Shown piece after piece: positions 2,939 through 62,292 of a stretch of DNA of 62,369 nt. The notes below the pieces were generated by a model. That model saw nothing but the letters and a program-made list of their open reading frames with translations, was not told the DNA's origin and made no database searches. Where the stretch lies: positions 1 to 62,369 of IMG/VR virus record IMGVR_UViG_3300033076_000313; one strand, 5' to 3'. This stretch comes from a virus (taxonomy: Duplodnaviria; Caudoviricetes). Both the position numbers and the translations under genes were made by a program. Every line of letters starts with the position of its first letter. The stretch's first letter is position 1.

Positions 2939-3237
2939 TGGCAACGCAATACCCCAACAGCGGCAAGCTGTCCACCAACAAGTACAAAGAGGCCGGCGAT
3001 AAAAAGCCAGACATGCACGGTGAAATCACCATGACGCGCACAGCTCTGAAAGGTTTGCTGGAAGAGACTGACGCAGACGACGTGGTCATCAAGCTGTCGG
3101 CTTGGCACATGGAAGGCAGCTACGGCCCATGGATGCGCCTCGCTTGGAACAACTACAAGCCAAAGCCACAAGAGCAGCAGGCTCCACAGCAGCGTGCACA
3201 AGAGCCCGACGGCATGGATGATGACATTCCCTTCTGA
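2938..3237 (+). CDS. single-stranded DNA-binding protein-like
   Basis: Follows erf; Q/P linker and acidic tail MDDDIPF typical of SSBs. Confidence 0.7.
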   Translation: MATQYPNSGKLSTNKYKEAGDKKPDMHGEITMTRTALKGLLEETDADDVVIKLSAWHMEGSYGPWMRLAWNNYKPKPQEQQAPQQRAQEPDGMDDDIPF

Positions 3238-3239
3238 CC

Positions 3240-3662
3240 ATGGAAACCATCCAGTTTGAAGGGCGCAAGATCGCCATGAAACAGGACAGGACGGGGTATG
3301 TGCTTACCCTGTCCGTGCACCCCGACGAGATACCCGAGATGCTCGTGCGTGATTTCGTTGGGGCGCGTTACCAAGTCGTCATGGTTCGACTGAGTGACGA
3401 CGGTAAAGCCATGGTTCGTGAGCAAGAGTACCCGTCAAAAGACCTTGTTCGTTTGGCTGGTGTCATGTGCCGCGATCCCCTGTTCCACGCCTTCTTGGCA
3501 GAGACAGGCCAGATATTTGAAGAGAGCGAAGCAACAGCAATCGAGTGGTTGCGTGAAGAGATTGGCATCCAGTCTCGCGCTGAGCTAAAGACAAACCAAA
3601 CCGCAGCCTCGCGCTTCCGGTTTATCCATCAGGAGTTCCAAGCATGGAAAGCAACACGTTGA
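3240..3662 (+). CDS. hypothetical protein
   Basis: Contiguous ORF; IGIQSRAELKTNQTAA motif resembles conserved phage hypothetical proteins. Confidence 0.75.
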   Translation: METIQFEGRKIAMKQDRTGYVLTLSVHPDEIPEMLVRDFVGARYQVVMVRLSDDGKAMVREQEYPSKDLVRLAGVMCRDPLFHAFLAETGQIFEESEATAIEWLREEIGIQSRAELKTNQTAASRFRFIHQEFQAWKATR

Positions 3663-59218: not shown

Positions 59219-59601
59219 GCCATTCCCAGTTCTTGTTCCATGCGTTGATAAATCTTGACTGCATCGTCCACCACGTCGATTGGCGTCATGCCGATCAACT
59301 CTTCTGATGCAATCAGGCCGGCGTAGATTGAGCCGCGATCTACGGGCGTGATGGCAGGCTTGTTCTTCAGGTCATCAAGGGCATTGATTGAACCTTGGAT
59401 GATGCGAAACCGCACATCGGTATCTGAAGTGCCCATGTGGGCAGCGCAGGCACTTGCTACGAACATGAGCACTGAGCCGTATGCCAGAAGCTTGTCTTTG
59501 TTTTCACCGATCAAGGCGTGAATCTGTGCGTTGACAAGTTCTGATGCCCACTTGGCCCGCATCTGTGCGCGCAAGACTGGGTGAATGGTTTTTCTTTTCA
59601 T
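59215..59601 (-). CDS. hypothetical protein
   Basis: Start MKRKTIHP (GGAG RBS). Confidence 0.7.
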   Translation of the reverse strand: MKRKTIHPVLRAQMRAKWASELVNAQIHALIGENKDKLLAYGSVLMFVASACAAHMGTSDTDVRFRIIQGSINALDDLKNKPAITPVDRGSIYAGLIASEELIGMTPIDVVDDAVKIYQRMEQELGMA

Positions 59602-59876
59602 GATTTCACTCCGCAAACAATTTCCATGTAAGCCACATAGACCTGATCGGCCGTGTGGAATGTGCGCTTGTCATCTGGTAGGTAGTAAAAGCTCTTGGGG
59701 TTACCAAACAAACGACCTTGCTTGTAGGGCGTGATGGTCACCTTGTTCACGCCAGTGCTGTGGTTGACGCGGTGCAGGTAGTGTTCTTTGTCGCCAGAGA
59801 TGTGTAAGACCAGTTGCATAGGCAGTGCACAGAACTCTTCAAAGGTGTACTCTGGTCTAAGGCAGTCTGGTTTCAT
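59598..59876 (-). CDS. hypothetical protein
   Basis: ATGA overlaps with neighbours. Confidence 0.65.
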   Translation of the reverse strand: MKPDCLRPEYTFEEFCALPMQLVLHISGDKEHYLHRVNHSTGVNKVTITPYKQGRLFGNPKSFYYLPDDKRTFHTADQVYVAYMEIVCGVKS

Positions 59877-60076
59877 CCTGCCACCCATACGGCCTTTCCG
59901 CCTGTTGGTTCAAAGTCTTCAAACTTCAAGCGAACATACTGTTGACCTTCCACTCCGGCAGATTGGACATAGCCTTGGATGCCAAAGTCTTTAAGCTCTG
60001 TCACCACTACCATGCAGCCGCCAAACATTTCTTTCAACGGGTTCACTTGTACGATGTCATGCACTTCGATATTCAT
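59873..60076 (-). CDS. small SH3-like hypothetical protein
   Basis: DIVQVNP..FGGCMVVVTE..GIQGYV..TGGKAVW. Confidence 0.7.
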   Translation of the reverse strand: MNIEVHDIVQVNPLKEMFGGCMVVVTELKDFGIQGYVQSAGVEGQQYVRLKFEDFEPTGGKAVWVAG

Positions 60077-60468
60077 GCTGCCACCTTGACCATGCGCACA
60101 TCGGTGATGCCGCCAAAAATAATATCAATCTGGCTCATGCCGGAAAGGTCTTTGTCAAAGATTTCGAGCTTGAAGTTGTTTTCATCAAACCACTTGAGCC
60201 ACTGGTACAGCTGCTCTTCCGCGCGCTCTCCACGACCAAGCACAGCAACACAAGGATGCTTGTGGTACGCATCTTCTGGCGTCCACACATCGCCGTTTTT
60301 GTCGGTGCGGTTCCACTCTTTGTCGTGCCACTCATAATCTGGATACTTGCCATCGGCCAAAATGCCGACGCACTCACGGCCAAATCCGCATTCGCCCTCA
60401 AGCGTAAGCACACATTGGTTCTTGTGCGCCCACATAATCATCCAGTTGGTTTTCTCTTCACGTGTCAT
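60073..60468 (-). CDS. hypothetical protein
   Basis: GGAG RBS; LEGECGFGRECVGI..AYHKHPCVAVLG. Confidence 0.75.
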   Translation of the reverse strand: MTREEKTNWMIMWAHKNQCVLTLEGECGFGRECVGILADGKYPDYEWHDKEWNRTDKNGDVWTPEDAYHKHPCVAVLGRGERAEEQLYQWLKWFDENNFKLEIFDKDLSGMSQIDIIFGGITDVRMVKVAA

Positions 60469-60559
60469 GTTTATCTCCGGCTGGTTGGAGAACGGATGAT
60501 ACAGCAAGTTGCACATATCTACACATTAGTGCAATGAATTATTTCTATGTGCAAGGAAG

Positions 60560-61173
60560 TGTCGATAGGAAAAACAAATCGCAAAAACGAAAAGCCAAAG
60601 GTTCCCCAAGGGTGAATAGCCAAGGTATTCATCCCTGCCCATAGGGCACATACGTGGTGTCCTACTAGCAAACCCATAAGGCAGCGATTCGTCGATAGGA
60701 GGCTTGTCTTTCACCGCTCGTCCTCTTATCTTGCCCAGTCCCTCGCTGACAGGCTGGACGGCTGTTATCTGGGGGTGTGGCCAGTGCCGGTGTTTCCTTC
60801 CGCGCCACCCATGCAGGTGCAGTGCTATCGTGCGGAGTACGGCTACTGTAGAAGAGAGATGCACTTGATGATGGTGGCTGGGCTGGATACCAGCTCGGTA
60901 GAGGCAATGCCCATCTCTACCGCTTGAGGGCTTACGATCCCATTACGCATTTGTCACCTGCTGCTATCTGTGTCGGTCAAAGCGGCTGCATACCGCGCCA
61001 AACATTTCATTTTTCAGAACCAGCAAGAAGTGTGTCTATCCACACCGCACCATCATCAAGTACACAAACAAAAAAGCCGCTTACTACTGCCCTCGGTAGG
61101 AACCCTAGAGTAAAAACCAAGGGCGAGAGCATGAGTAAACGGCTTCAGTCTTTGTCGCTTCCTACGGCAACGG
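60560..61173 (-). ncRNA. candidate structured non-coding RNA region (three sub-domains)
   Basis: No credible ORF; many complementary segments including a 14-bp perfect long-range stem and loop-loop pairings; sigma70 promoter immediately upstream. Confidence 0.55.
61070..61145 (-). terminator. terminator-like closing stem with U-tract
   Basis: AAGCCGTTTACT/AGTAAGCGGCTT stem followed by TTTTGTTT on the minus strand. Confidence 0.55.
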
Positions 61174-61178
61174 TTTGG

Positions 61179-61206
61179 ATTATACACACATTTCAATGTG
61201 TTGCAA
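61179..61206 (-). promoter_or_regulatory. sigma70-type promoter
   Basis: TTGCAA-N16-TATAAT; predicted +1 near 61172, where the first hairpin begins. Confidence 0.65.
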
Positions 61207-61274
61207 CACGTTTCATACCGTACTTTTACTCACCCTATCCGGCTAGGGTGACAAAAGCGACACGGTGTCGTATT

Positions 61275-61362
61275 TGGCGGATGGTGTTGGGATCGAACCA
61301 ACGCGCCCCTTGCGGGACGACAGGTTAGCAACCTGCTGCCTTAACCTCTCGGCCAACCATCC
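61275..61362 (-). tRNA. tRNA-Ser(GCT)
   Basis: GGATGGT acceptor stem, anticodon loop TTGCTAA, long variable arm, GGTTCGATCCC, encoded CCA. Confidence 0.92.
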
Positions 61363-61363
61363 T

Positions 61364-61437
61364 TGGCATCCCGACAGGGAATCGAACCCCAGATAACGGA
61401 CTTGGAAACCGTTGTGTTACCACTACACCATCGAGAA
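61364..61437 (-). tRNA. tRNA-Trp(CCA), atypical
   Basis: D arm GTGT-AGTGGTA-ACAC, loop TTCCAAG, TTCGATT T loop, G73, CCA; several mismatches and wobbles. Confidence 0.75.
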
Positions 61438-61442
61438 ACAAC

Positions 61443-61530
61443 TGGCGGAAGAGGTGAGATTCGAACTCACGGAGCCTTTCGACTCGACAGTTTTCAAGAC
61501 TGCTGCATTAAACCGCTCTGCCACTCTTCC
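61443..61530 (-). tRNA. tRNA-Ser(TGA)
   Basis: GGAAGAG acceptor, loop CTTGAAA, long variable arm, GTTCGAATC, CCA. Confidence 0.93.
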
Positions 61531-61610
61531 AAATTTGGCCGGTGACGATTATCCGGCTCGTATGTTGATGCGCTTCCACCCCAATGGGGATGCTCGCCTA
61601 CGACGAATCT

Positions 61611-61686
61611 TGGTGCCGACTCTCAGATTCGAACTGAGGCTCTCCCGCTTACAAGGCGGGTGCAGTGACCACTTTGCTAAGTCGGC
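61611..61686 (-). tRNA. tRNA-Thr(TGT)
   Basis: GCCGACT/AGTCGGC acceptor, CCCGC-CTTGTAA-GCGGG, GTTCGAATC, ACCA. Confidence 0.9.
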
Positions 61687-62065
61687 GTTTATATTCTTTG
61701 TTGTGCGCACTTTTTGCCGCCACGCACAGTGAGCATTTGCAATACCTGTACTCGGTTAATGTTCCATGTTTTGGAACCCTGACAGCTTTGCGATGCTCAT
61801 GGTTTTTGACTTTGTTTTCATGACCAGTCAAGATTTGAAGGTTGTCCAAACTGTCGTTTGTTTTGTCTTCGTCTTTGTGATCAACCTCCTCCTCGTCCGT
61901 CAAGTACCTTCCAATCTTCACTGCCATCAAGTACCTAGCGTAACTTGTGACAGTCCTGTCTTTGTTGCTGTTGTAAAGAACAACATACTTCCTGCCGTCT
62001 TTGCTTTCCTGCAAATAACCACGGCGCCAGTCAGTAGAGTAAGGTGCGGACAATTCGTATCTCAT
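61649..62065 (-). CDS. free-standing HNH homing endonuclease
   Basis: YARYLM..EEVDHKDEDKTNDSLDNLQILT..EN (HNH_3-type) and a C-terminal HG..Y..CKC..C motif; located in the tRNA cluster. Confidence 0.85.
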   Translation of the reverse strand: MRYELSAPYSTDWRRGYLQESKDGRKYVVLYNSNKDRTVTSYARYLMAVKIGRYLTDEEEVDHKDEDKTNDSLDNLQILTGHENKVKNHEHRKAVRVPKHGTLTEYRYCKCSLCVAAKSAHNKEYKRRLSKVVTAPAL

Positions 62066-62083
62066 GCACGAATTATACACGAC

Positions 62084-62110
62084 TTGCTCTACCAACTGAG
62101 CTACAAGGGC
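62084..62110 (-). pseudogene. orphan 5' half of a tRNA
   Basis: GCCCTTG-TA-GCTC-AGTTGGTA-GAGC-A directly after the tRNA-Asn CCA; no matching CAAGGGC 3' acceptor strand downstream. Confidence 0.75.
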
Positions 62111-62185
62111 TGGCTGCCAAGGCTGGGATCGAACCAGCGACCAACAGATTAACAGTCTGCTGCACTACCGCTGTGCTACTTGGCA
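62111..62185 (-). tRNA. tRNA-Asn(GTT)
   Basis: TGCCAAG acceptor, GCAGA-CTGTTAA-TCTGT, GGTTCGATCC, GCCA. Confidence 0.93.
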
Positions 62186-62205
62186 AAAACTTTGGGGAGG
62201 GGTCT

Positions 62206-62292
62206 TGGTGGGGATGGCTGGATTCGAACCAACTCAACGTAGAAGTAACAGATTTACAGTCTGCCGTGCCTCACCAACTGCACCGCATCCCC
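62206..62292 (-). tRNA. tRNA-Tyr(GTA)
   Basis: GGGGATG acceptor, GCAGA-CTGTAAA-TCTGT, long variable arm, GGTTCGAATCC, ACCA. Confidence 0.9.

What the first reader, a model, noticed from the sequence alone, without database searches (positions are those of the whole stretch)
60860..61064. tRNA-elbow mimic: long acceptor-like stem, D arm and T arm enclosing a ~135-nt insert
Seen: a 14-bp perfect inverted repeat ACTTGATGATGGTG (60863-76) / CACCATCATCAAGT (61048-61), extendable to 17 bp with one G-U on the minus strand. The 5' strand is followed by a 2-nt linker and a D-arm-like hairpin (GTGT-GGATAG-ACAC). The 3' strand is immediately preceded by a T-arm-like 5-bp hairpin (GCTGG-TATCCAGC-CCAGC). 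This is tRNA geometry, but the anticodon arm is replaced by a long insert containing another perfect 8-bp stem (60896-903/60915-922), and there is no CCA end. Inference: an RNase P/RNase Z-processed carrier for a cargo RNA, or a decoy for host tRNA-targeting defence, located just downstream of the tRNA cluster. It is not a canonical tRNA or tmRNA.
Basis: partly seen in the sequence, partly recalled or inferred. Interest (0 to 1): 0.78.

Follow-up and report, generated by a model that had tools for sequence, protein, structure and literature searches.

The report
Widespread phage RNA with kissing hairpins
The flagged stretch is a real, conserved folded RNA element: a divergent copy of a very common but unannotated phage and prophage RNA motif that resembles a tRNA in outline and in where it sits, but is not a true tRNA mimic.

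Summary
On the minus strand, 60860-61064 forms a 17-bp closing stem (P1), a 5' hairpin (P2), a 134-nt variable arm and a 5-bp 3' hairpin (P3) that abuts P1.

Relatives keep this fold. Counts are 94.9% paired cells with 19 of 34 pairs doubly changed in 11 sequences, and 95.8% with 23 of 34 in 77 further sequences. The P2 and P3 loops are complementary and covary (a "kissing" pair). The middle varies so that members are 89-238 nt long.

The window copy is a divergent subgroup of a family found in:
- at least 120 IMG/VR contigs
- at least 120 bacterial species, mostly Gamma- and Betaproteobacteria
- 845 of 5426 complete E. coli genomes (one variant, nothing annotated beneath it)

No Rfam 15 family matches it, and four paper searches found no description.

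17 of 96 copies lie within 500 nt of a tRNA gene, all co-oriented. In the window's lineage the element is an insertion: it is absent from close relatives and sits elsewhere in others.

A literal tRNA elbow is not supported. There is no T-loop (1 of 96, and that one is in the variable arm), no 7-bp acceptor stem and no tRNA-model hit. Processing and function are untested.

This scan has noted the same family before in E. coli prophage leaders.

The parts
61048..61064 (-). P1, 5' strand of the closing helix (UGUACUUGAUGAUGGUG)
   Evidence: P1 covaries in relatives: 9 of 18 pairs doubly changed in A3 and 15 of 18 in A4.
60860..60876 (-). P1, 3' strand (CACCAUCAUCAAGUGCA). 17 bp with one G-U that exists only on the minus strand.
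61029..61046 (-). P2, the 5' hairpin: stem 61046-61041 / 61034-61029, loop L2 GAUAGA at 61040-61035. A 1-2 nt linker (61047) joins it to P1.
   Evidence: All 6 P2 pairs are doubly changed in A3.
60895..61028 (-). Variable arm, 134 nt, several hairpins including the 8-bp stem 60896-903 / 60915-922.
   Evidence: Family members are 89-238 nt long because this part varies.
60877..60894 (-). P3, the 3' hairpin: stem 60894-60890 / 60881-60877, loop L3 UAUCCAGC at 60889-60882. It abuts P1 with no linker.
   Evidence: 4 of 5 P3 pairs are doubly changed in A4, where P3 was not part of the search pattern.
61037..61041 (-). L2 side of the candidate loop-loop pairing, GGAUA. The family-register pair G61036/A61035 lies beside it.
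   Evidence: Read. Loop-loop covariation is shown.
60885..60889 (-). L3 side of the candidate loop-loop pairing, UAUCC. The family-register partners are C60886/U60887.
60843..61069 (-). The whole segment that is inserted relative to relatives that lack the element.
   Evidence: L010 and L024 join the flanking modules directly. Contigs of run X16 join 60842 to 61070 with 13-14 other letters between.
61070..61206 (-). Context: upstream module. Promoter-like TTGCAA-16-TATAAT (61206-61179), then a hairpin RNA of about 100 nt ending in a U-tract just before the element.
   Evidence: z -4.81. Conserved in about 10 related loci.
60520..60842 (-). Context: downstream conserved non-coding module, beginning CCGUACUCCGCACGAUAGCA.
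   Evidence: nhmmer E down to 9e-49 in related loci.
61275..61362 (-). Context: nearest tRNA gene (tRNA-Ser), 209 nt upstream and co-oriented. It is the last of a six-tRNA island.

Best explanation
The element is a divergent member of a large, unannotated family of structured RNAs carried by phages and prophages of Proteobacteria. It is read from the minus strand as part of a longer non-coding transcript that follows the tRNA island.

The fold is a multi-way junction. P1 is a long closing helix that insulates the fold from its flanks. P3 is a 5-bp hairpin stacked directly on P1. P2 is a 6-bp hairpin joined by a 1-3 nt linker. Between P2 and P3 lies a hypervariable arm. Complementary bases in the P2 and P3 loops pair and lock the conserved core.

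The conserved core therefore acts as a fixed scaffold, and the arm as an exchangeable payload. The unit behaves as a cassette that phages gain, lose and move among non-coding leaders and tRNA islands.

Shown: the fold, its covariation, its strand, its modular insertion, its spread and its link with tRNA genes.

Inferred: that it is released from the precursor by host RNases (cuts in or beside P1, or RNase P cleavage of an adjoining tRNA), and that it then acts as a stable small RNA whose arm gives it specificity.

It resembles a tRNA in outline and in genomic niche, but it is not a tRNA-elbow mimic in the strict sense.
For: Fold and covariation:
- Minus-strand fold z -3.61.
- Window versus L044 (about 61% identity): 5 compensatory pairs in P1, plus others in P2, P3 and the inner stem.
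- 11-sequence MAFFT alignment A3: 94.9% of cells paired against 82.9 +/- 1.1 in shuffles (0 of 500 as high). 19 of 34 pairs are doubly changed. Slid controls give 27-49% paired.
- Second set: 82 matches in 80 of 80 loci, 77 distinct rows. 95.8% paired, 23 of 34 pairs doubly changed. P3 changes in 4 of 5 pairs and the loop-loop pairs hold in 97-99% of rows, although only the 5' side was in the search pattern.
- Loop-loop covariation: GCUGAU/AUCAGC, ACUGAU/AUCAGU, GCCGAU/AUCGGU, GCCGGU/AUCGGC, and in the window GGAUA/UAUCC.

Strand:
- G-U outnumbers A-C by 91 to 22 in A4 and 19 to 5 in A3.
- Reverse-strand model scores are far lower, for example 125 against 38 bits for L093.
- Flanking gene clusters are almost all co-oriented.

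Cassette behaviour:
- Of seven loci holding both flanking modules, the element lies between them in 3 (window, L044, L008). It is absent in 2 (L010, L024). A different stem-closed insert takes its place in 2 (L073, L075).
- In L087, L092, L093, L095, L097 and L100 it sits after the CCGUACUCCGC motif instead of before it.
- In L075 and L077 it is one of four cassettes with repeated flanks.

Spread:
- At least 120 IMG/VR stretches and at least 120 species genomes.
- 845 of 5426 E. coli genomes for one variant, with no feature annotated beneath it.
- 10 of 120 further genomes sampled from the taxonomic family of the genome holding L223 (a lower bound).

tRNA link: 17 of 96 copies within 500 nt, all 17 co-oriented.

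Not a known family: no Rfam match.
Against: - No direct evidence of expression or processing for the window copy. Only contigs could be laid, and they came from relatives.
- In the window the element lies directly after a strong terminator-like hairpin, and no convincing promoter of its own was found. Transcription would therefore need read-through.
- A model built without the window subgroup finds the window copy only weakly: 11.9 bits, E 0.0088 in 2.9 kb with filters off, and nothing with default filters. Membership rests partly on intermediate members.
- In the family register the window subgroup keeps only 2 loop-loop pairs. The window's 5-bp pairing uses a shifted register and is not shared by L090 or L096.
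- Alignments fitted to a covariance model lean towards that model's structure.
- Compensatory change in a stem, and a strand bias in G-T pairs, would also fit a single-stranded DNA structure.
- No conserved protein partner and no antisense target in the phage were found, so the trans-acting role is inference only.
Confidence: 0.6

Rival explanations
1. It is a cis-acting element of the leader transcript. It would act as an RNase III-type processing stem or stabiliser, or as an RNA that modifies elongating RNA polymerase (put-like), and would have no life as a free RNA.
For: It always lies in non-coding leaders of long phage operons:
- after cI and before the early-left genes in mEp460 and an Stx2a phage
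- between Q-like and lysis genes in other loci
- after a promoter-terminator unit in the window

P1 is a long duplex of 9-22 bp stacked on P3. In L075 and L077 the same flanking stem sequence encloses four different cargos, as a generic processing signal would.
Against: - It is optional among close relatives.
- It can sit 0-19 nt from tRNA genes inside tRNA islands.
- A U-run within 60 nt occurs upstream in 10 of 96 copies and downstream in 10 of 96, against a background of 5.7%, so there is no general link with terminators.
- In the window it lies after the terminator, not before it.
- A plain processing stem would not need conserved, covarying P2/P3 loops.
Confidence: 0.15
2. It is a building block of a large multimeric RNA. 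The L2-L3 complementarity would be intermolecular, joining copies head to tail as in phi29 pRNA rings or the ROOL and GOLLD cages.
For: - Both hairpins are anchored to the same end of P1, through 0 and 1-3 nt. A coaxial 5-6 bp loop-loop helix within one molecule therefore looks sterically strained (my own geometric inference, not computed).
- In six loci the element is embedded inside a larger conserved non-coding RNA.
- Passages read in Kretsch et al. 2025 (PMC12286853) state that ROOL and GOLLD are encoded in phages and prophages, often near tRNA islands. They also state that kissing loops first predicted from covariation turned out to be bridges between chains.
Against: - Covariation cannot tell pairing within a molecule from pairing between molecules.
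- The window subgroup has only 2-5 complementary loop bases.
- Many copies stand alone, next to tRNAs or in E. coli leaders.
- No Rfam match to pRNA, ROOL or GOLLD.
Confidence: 0.12
3. It is a true tRNA mimic. It would be recognised through an elbow-like corner by RNase P, RNase Z or other tRNA-binding proteins, and would serve as a processed carrier or as a decoy for tRNA-targeting defences.
For: - tRNA-like order of helices, and a 5-bp P3 stacked on P1.
- Enriched beside co-oriented tRNA genes.
- It occupies positions where phages otherwise carry tRNAs.
Against: - No T-loop: a canonical T-arm occurs in 1 of 96 members and lies in the variable arm.
- The loop contacts are antiparallel Watson-Crick pairs.
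- P1 is 9-22 bp with no 3' CCA.
- No tRNA, tmRNA or YrlA model match on the element at E<=10, and no ARAGORN call.
- The arm in the anticodon position has no conserved stem-loop.
Confidence: 0.08
4. It is a DNA-level element: a small mobile cassette whose inverted ends and hairpins work as single-stranded or cruciform DNA sites for a recombinase or transposase.
For: - Presence/absence polymorphism, and different insertion points relative to the same flanking modules.
- At the DNA level the ends are imperfect inverted repeats that both carry GCTGAT (read).
- Tandem cassettes with repeated flanks.
Against: - Low copy number: median 1 and at most 3 places per E. coli genome.
- No associated transposase or recombinase among conserved neighbours.
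- No target-site duplication seen at the window's junctions (read).
- Always co-oriented with neighbouring genes and tRNAs.
- P2 and P3 differ from each other and each covaries as its own hairpin.
Confidence: 0.05

Closest known systems
tRNA (Rfam RF00005)
   Same: The order of helices matches: closing helix, short linker, 5' hairpin, middle arm, then a 5-bp 3' hairpin stacked on the closing helix, with contact between the two hairpin loops. It lies beside co-oriented tRNA genes.
   Different: P1 is 9-22 bp rather than 7. There is no CCA, no T-loop or D-loop consensus and no anticodon arm. The loops pair by Watson-Crick contacts. There is no model match.
ROOL and GOLLD RNAs (large ornate phage/prophage RNAs)
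   Same: These are phage and prophage non-coding RNAs of unknown function, often near tRNA islands, held together by covarying kissing loops (passages of PMC12286853). In six loci this element is embedded in a larger conserved RNA.
   Different: This element is much smaller (89-238 nt) and often stands alone. There is no sequence or structure match. Oligomerisation has not been shown.
phi29 pRNA
   Same: From recalled knowledge, not tested: pRNA has a 5'/3' closing helix, a junction, and two loops complementary to each other.
   Different: The hosts and phage types differ. This element is optional among close relatives, which argues against a packaging role. No Rfam match was found in the all-family scans.
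C4 antisense RNA of P1/P7 and CI RNA of P4 (Rfam RF01695)
   Same: These are small structured phage RNAs cut out of leader transcripts. Their processing by RNase P is recalled from the literature, not read here.
   Different: No model match on the element. A true C4 match lies elsewhere in the mEp460 locus, at L220:469-556. The architecture is different.
T4 rnaC and rnaD (species 1 and 2 stable RNAs)
   Same: These are stable RNAs of unknown function encoded directly after a phage tRNA cluster (annotation).
   Different: The family model finds nothing there, even with filters off and E up to 10. T4 rnaC ends in a canonical T-arm, which this family lacks.
sRNA-17 of E. coli K1 RS218 (PMC7719688)
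   Same: Passages read describe a 193-nt RNA, mapped by RACE and seen on a Northern blot, in an intergenic region of an mEp460-type prophage. In mEp460, the span from the first base of the element to the U-run of the next hairpin is 194 nt (L220:3001-3194). sRNA-17 may therefore be this element plus its terminator.
   Different: This is not verified. The RS218 record is not in the held collections, the sequence is not in the paper's main text, and the supplements are closed.

Membership tests
tRNA | Cloverleaf recognised by tRNA finders and the Rfam tRNA model | tested here: not met
   ARAGORN makes no call in 60860-61064. There is no RF00005 match on the element at E<=10, while six neighbouring tRNAs score 47-70 bits.
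tRNA | 7-bp acceptor stem with a 3' single-stranded end | tested here: not met
   P1 is 17-18 bp in the window and 9-22 bp across the family. No CCA follows it.
tRNA | T-arm: 5-bp stem with a 7-nt UUCRANY loop | tested here: not met
   The P3 loop is UAUCCAGC in the window and AGAUCAGCA in the consensus. A canonical T-arm occurs in 1 of 96 distinct members, and there it is in the variable arm.
tRNA | Contact between the D-loop and T-loop at the elbow | tested here: inconclusive
   The two loops do covary, but as antiparallel Watson-Crick pairs. The three-dimensional geometry cannot be tested with these tools.
tmRNA | tRNA-like domain plus a tag reading frame | tested here: not met
   ARAGORN finds no tmRNA and Rfam gives no match.
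YrlA / bacterial Y RNA | Match to RF02553 | tested here: not met
   The only YrlA match in the stretch (28.6 bits, below the gathering score of 69) lies over tRNA-Asn at 62084-62144, not on the element.
GOLLD / ROOL / pRNA / C4 | Match to the Rfam model | tested here: not met
   All-family scans of the window stretch and of 11 member loci gave no such match on any element.
The unnamed phage motif defined here (P1, P2, variable arm, P3, L2-L3 pairing) | P1, P2 and P3 in that order, with P3 abutting P1 | tested here: met
The unnamed phage motif defined here | Complementary L2 and L3 loops | tested here: inconclusive
   In the family register the window has only 2 pairs (G61036-C60886, A61035-U60887). 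A 5-bp pairing, GGAUA/UAUCC, exists in a shifted register. Other subgroup members have 2-4 pairs.
The unnamed phage motif defined here | Significant score with a model that does not include the window | tested here: inconclusive
   Model R2 gives 11.9 bits, E 0.0088 over 2.9 kb with filters off. That is the top hit, at 60867-61057 on the minus strand. With default filters there is no hit. The sister copy L096 scores 19.2 bits, E 0.0088 over 244 kb. Model R1 scores 109 bits but was built with the window included.

The most novel reading that the evidence does not exclude
Phages of Proteobacteria share a modular RNA cassette system. A conserved scaffold (P1 plus two hairpins with complementary loops) would join copies head to tail through intermolecular loop-loop pairing, as in pRNA rings or the ROOL and GOLLD cages. 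The resulting RNA-only assemblies would display hypervariable arms, released together with phage tRNAs. They could, for instance, capture or distract host factors that act on tRNAs or phage RNAs.
Probability: 0.1. Interest if true: 0.85.

Novelty: new variant of a known kind. Interest (0 to 1): 0.62.

Why it matters
A folded RNA with strong covariation, including a loop-loop tertiary pair, occurs in about one in seven complete E. coli genomes (counting a single variant), in Stx-converting, P1-like and lambdoid phages, and in uncultured freshwater phages. It has no Rfam family and no annotation.

It sits in the most heavily transcribed non-coding parts of phage genomes, and inside tRNA islands. 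Those are the places where ROOL, GOLLD and the T4 stable RNAs also remain unexplained.

A defined core with an exchangeable arm gives a compact system for asking what these phage RNAs do. If sRNA-17 of E. coli K1 proves to be a member, one copy already has a reported phenotype.

For annotation, it shows that the "empty" leaders of N-less lambdoid prophages and the gaps after phage tRNA clusters hold recognisable RNA genes.

Tried and rejected
- **Direct DNA similarity.** Blastn of 60500-61300 against 50,697 phage records gave no match. An exact two-arm pattern in IMG/VR gave none.
- **Relatives of the neighbouring 147-aa gene.** Five loci were fetched. They hold neither the element nor tRNAs.
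- **Protein coding.** The 112-aa and 80-aa minus-strand frames over the region have no Pfam match (one of them tested). The family's length changes are not in threes. Coding was rejected.
- **RNA expression.** One search found 20 runs. Four were laid, two of them true metatranscriptomes, and all four are kept as contigs only. Contigs of relatives cover the flanking modules and stop at the element's edges, which reflects sequence divergence and not RNA ends. Nothing can be said about expression of the window copy. Gaps in cover over 59274-60563 carry no weight.
- **Antisense target in the phage.** The best complement to the element elsewhere in the window is a single 13-mer, against 0.36 expected by chance. 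Rejected.
- **Link with terminators.** A U-run within 60 nt occurs upstream in 10 of 96 and downstream in 10 of 96, against a background of 5.7%. There is no general link.
- **T4 rnaC/rnaD as homologues.** No model hit.
- **Dedicated protein partner.** Clustering of neighbouring ORFs shows only ordinary lambdoid modules.
- **Subgroup pattern.** In IMG/VR it found only L090 and L096. In metagenome contigs it found 18 stretches: 5 are members and 13 fall in protein-coding sequence by chance.
- **Prevalence in a class-wide sample.** 1 of 150 further genomes, with strict filters and few candidates scored, so this is a lower bound only.
- **Literature.** Four searches found no description of this motif. 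The library lacks most subscription journals, and supplements are closed, so sRNA catalogues of EHEC or EPEC could still list it.
- **Mapping sRNA-17 onto the element.** The record is not held and the main text gives no sequence.
Full report
**What is in the window**

The window is a whole, about 99% complete IMG/VR virus record of 62,369 bp. Its terminase is at most about 53% identical to that of any cultured phage.

Six tRNA genes lie on the minus strand at 61275-62292. They are followed on that strand by about 750 nt with no convincing reading frame, up to the gene at 60516-60073. The flagged element, 60860-61064, lies in this gap.

- a 17-bp closing stem, with one pair that is G-U only on the minus strand
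- a 6-bp hairpin one or two bases after it
- a 5-bp hairpin directly before the 3' strand of the stem
- an inner 8-bp stem

The minus strand folds at -83.2 kcal/mol, z -3.61. ARAGORN and Rfam at E<=10 find nothing on it.

**Finding relatives**

DNA searches with the element itself failed. I therefore fetched 80 loci around relatives of the helicase gene and compared the non-coding gap in pieces.

Two parts of the gap are conserved in many relatives. The first is the part upstream of the element: a TTGCAA-16-TATAAT promoter-like site, then a hairpin RNA of about 100 nt ending in a U-tract. The second is the 340 nt downstream of the element.

The element itself matched only one locus, L044, at about 61% identity. 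That copy keeps every helix through compensatory changes, five of them in P1.

Seven loci hold both flanking modules:
- In three, the element lies between the modules (window, L044, L008).
- In two, the modules are joined directly (L010, L024).
- In two, a different stem-closed insert fills the site (L073, L075).

Contigs of one public run likewise join 60842 to 61070, with 13-14 other letters between. The element is thus an insertion of 227 nt, 60843-61069.

**The family**

A pattern taken from the conserved 3' part found 14 IMG/VR loci. Ten carry a complete copy with a matching 5' arm, one (L091) is cut off at its 5' end, L094 has a shorter P1, and two look like chance matches.

An 11-sequence MAFFT alignment gave the following:
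- 94.9% of cells paired, against 82.9 +/- 1.1 in shuffles
- 27-49% paired when the partners are slid
- double changes in 19 of 34 pairs

The loops of the two hairpins are complementary and change together: GCUGAU/AUCAGC, ACUGAU/AUCAGU, GCCGAU/AUCGGU, GCCGGU/AUCGGC.

A covariance model built from this alignment found three more copies among the helicase loci.

The species hits are mostly Gamma- and Betaproteobacteria. All 80 IMG/VR loci kept from that scan hold a full-length model match.

In this second set the 3' hairpin and its loop were not part of the search pattern. Even so, P3 shows double changes in 4 of 5 pairs, and the loop-loop pairs hold in 97-99% of 77 distinct rows. Overall, 95.8% of cells are paired and 23 of 34 pairs are doubly changed. 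This alignment was fitted to the model, which favours the structure.

The consensus is GUUGUGGUG-AAU-GCGC-AGGCUGAU-GCGC ... AAGCCGG-AGAUCAGCA-CCGGC-CACCACAAC. The middle varies freely; whole members are 89-238 nt long.

**Where the window copy stands**

It belongs to a divergent subgroup: the window, L090, L096, and five metagenome contigs. The subgroup has a CG linker and different loops.

A model built without this subgroup finds the window copy only with filters off, at 11.9 bits. It is still the top hit in the stretch. L096 scores 19.2 bits.

In the family register the subgroup keeps only two loop-loop pairs. The window adds a 5-bp pairing, GGAUA/UAUCC, in a shifted register.

**RNA or DNA, and which strand**

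Several results point to an RNA read in the direction of the surrounding operon:
- G-U pairs outnumber A-C mismatches by 91 to 22 and by 19 to 5.
- Model scores on the opposite strand are far lower.
- The conserved neighbouring gene clusters are almost all co-oriented with the element.
- All 17 tRNA genes within 500 nt are co-oriented with it.

A single-stranded DNA structure on the same strand is not excluded. Against a mobile DNA element stand the low copy number (median 1, at most 3 per E. coli genome), the lack of any recombinase among conserved neighbours and the independent covariation of P2 and P3.

**Context in other phages**

One enterobacterial variant occurs in 845 of 5426 complete E. 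coli genomes, with nothing annotated beneath it. It also occurs in phage mEp460, in Stx2-converting phages and in P1-like phages.

In mEp460 and in one Stx2a phage it lies about 450 nt after the cI gene, in the leader of the early-left operon. In other loci it lies between Q-like and lysis genes.

17 of 96 copies are within 500 nt of a tRNA gene, four of them within 0-19 nt, and some sit inside tRNA islands.

In six freshwater loci the element sits inside the larger conserved RNA, after the CCGUACUCCGC motif rather than before it. In L075 and L077 it is one of four tandem cassettes that share the same flanking stem sequences but hold different cargos.

There is no general link with terminators.

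**Is it a tRNA mimic?**

In outline and in genomic niche, yes. In detail, no:
- P1 is 9-22 bp, and there is no CCA.
- The P3 loop is not a T-loop. A canonical T-arm occurs in 1 of 96 members, and there it is in the variable arm.
- The loop contacts are antiparallel Watson-Crick pairs.
- No tRNA, tmRNA or YrlA model matches the element.
- The T4 stable RNAs rnaC and rnaD, which occupy the same niche, are not relatives.

**How it most likely works**

Shown: a conserved core (inner P1, P2, P3, and the L2-L3 pairing) around an exchangeable arm, carried as a cassette in phage leaders and tRNA islands.

Inferred: P1 insulates the fold and marks it for excision by host RNases. Where a tRNA follows within a few bases, RNase P cleavage of that tRNA would set the element's 3' end. 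The released RNA would be a stable scaffold whose arm provides specificity.

Both hairpins are tied to the same end of P1, so a 5-6 bp loop-loop helix within one molecule looks strained. This is my own reasoning, not a computed result. Pairing between molecules is therefore a live alternative. Kretsch et al. 2025 (passages read) report that covarying kissing loops in ROOL and GOLLD, phage RNAs often found near tRNA islands, are bridges between chains.

**Links to earlier work**

This scan has met the same family before in E. coli prophage leaders. There, follow-up agents called it a widespread, unannotated, tRNA-shaped module. I treated those notes as leads only.

One lead may matter. sRNA-17 of E. 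coli K1 is a 193-nt RNA, mapped by RACE and seen on a Northern blot, in an mEp460-type prophage (passages of PMC7719688). In mEp460, the element plus the hairpin and U-run that follow it span 194 nt. I could not check the coordinates, and the supplements that might settle it are closed.

**Verdict**

The element is a divergent member of a widespread phage RNA motif that, as far as Rfam 15 and my four paper searches show, has not been described. Its function is unknown.

Noticed in passing
window 61070-61206 (minus strand): A promoter-like TTGCAA-16-TATAAT site is followed by a hairpin RNA of about 100 nt that ends in a U-tract (fold z -4.81). It is conserved in about 10 related loci. Contigs of relatives in metatranscriptome runs align to it. 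It looks like a short terminated RNA, or a lambda pR'-tR'-like unit, placed before the leader.
   Followed up: partly
window 60520-60842 (minus strand): A 340-nt non-coding module begins CCGUACUCCGCACGAUAGCA. It is conserved at 65-83% identity in 14 or more related loci. In six other freshwater loci its first 60 nt precede the element and a different 3' domain follows. It may be a large structured RNA in its own right. No Rfam match.
   Followed up: partly
L075:150-750 and L077:1890-2600: These are tandem arrays of four cassettes, with repeated left flank AGTCTCCAGCCGTGTTGG and right flank CCAACAACTAACACGCATGGGGATTG at 130-220 nt spacing. Each cassette holds a different cargo. The linkers in L077 contain hairpins that look like canonical T-arms, for example GTGAGTTCGAATCTCAC.
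   Followed up: partly
L073:4921-5014 and L075:1138-1255: At the exact site where the window has the element, these relatives carry unrelated inserts that are also closed by a 7-10 bp stem.
   Followed up: no
L093:4304-4320: The variable arm of this family member contains a perfect T-arm (GGCAG-UUCAAAU-CUGCC). It is the only one among 96 distinct members.
   Followed up: no
L220:3146-3194 and 3200-3290 (phage mEp460): Ten bases after the element comes a terminator-like hairpin with a U-run.
   Followed up: no
window 61649-62095 (minus strand): An HNH endonuclease gene (Pfam HNH_3, E 3.5e-06) lies inside the tRNA island, between tRNA-Asn and tRNA-Thr.
   Followed up: no
L102, L147, L172: Some prophage loci carry two copies of the motif with different variable arms. 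In L172 they follow two tRNA genes and precede a weak STnc100-like match (38 bits, below the gathering score).
   Followed up: no
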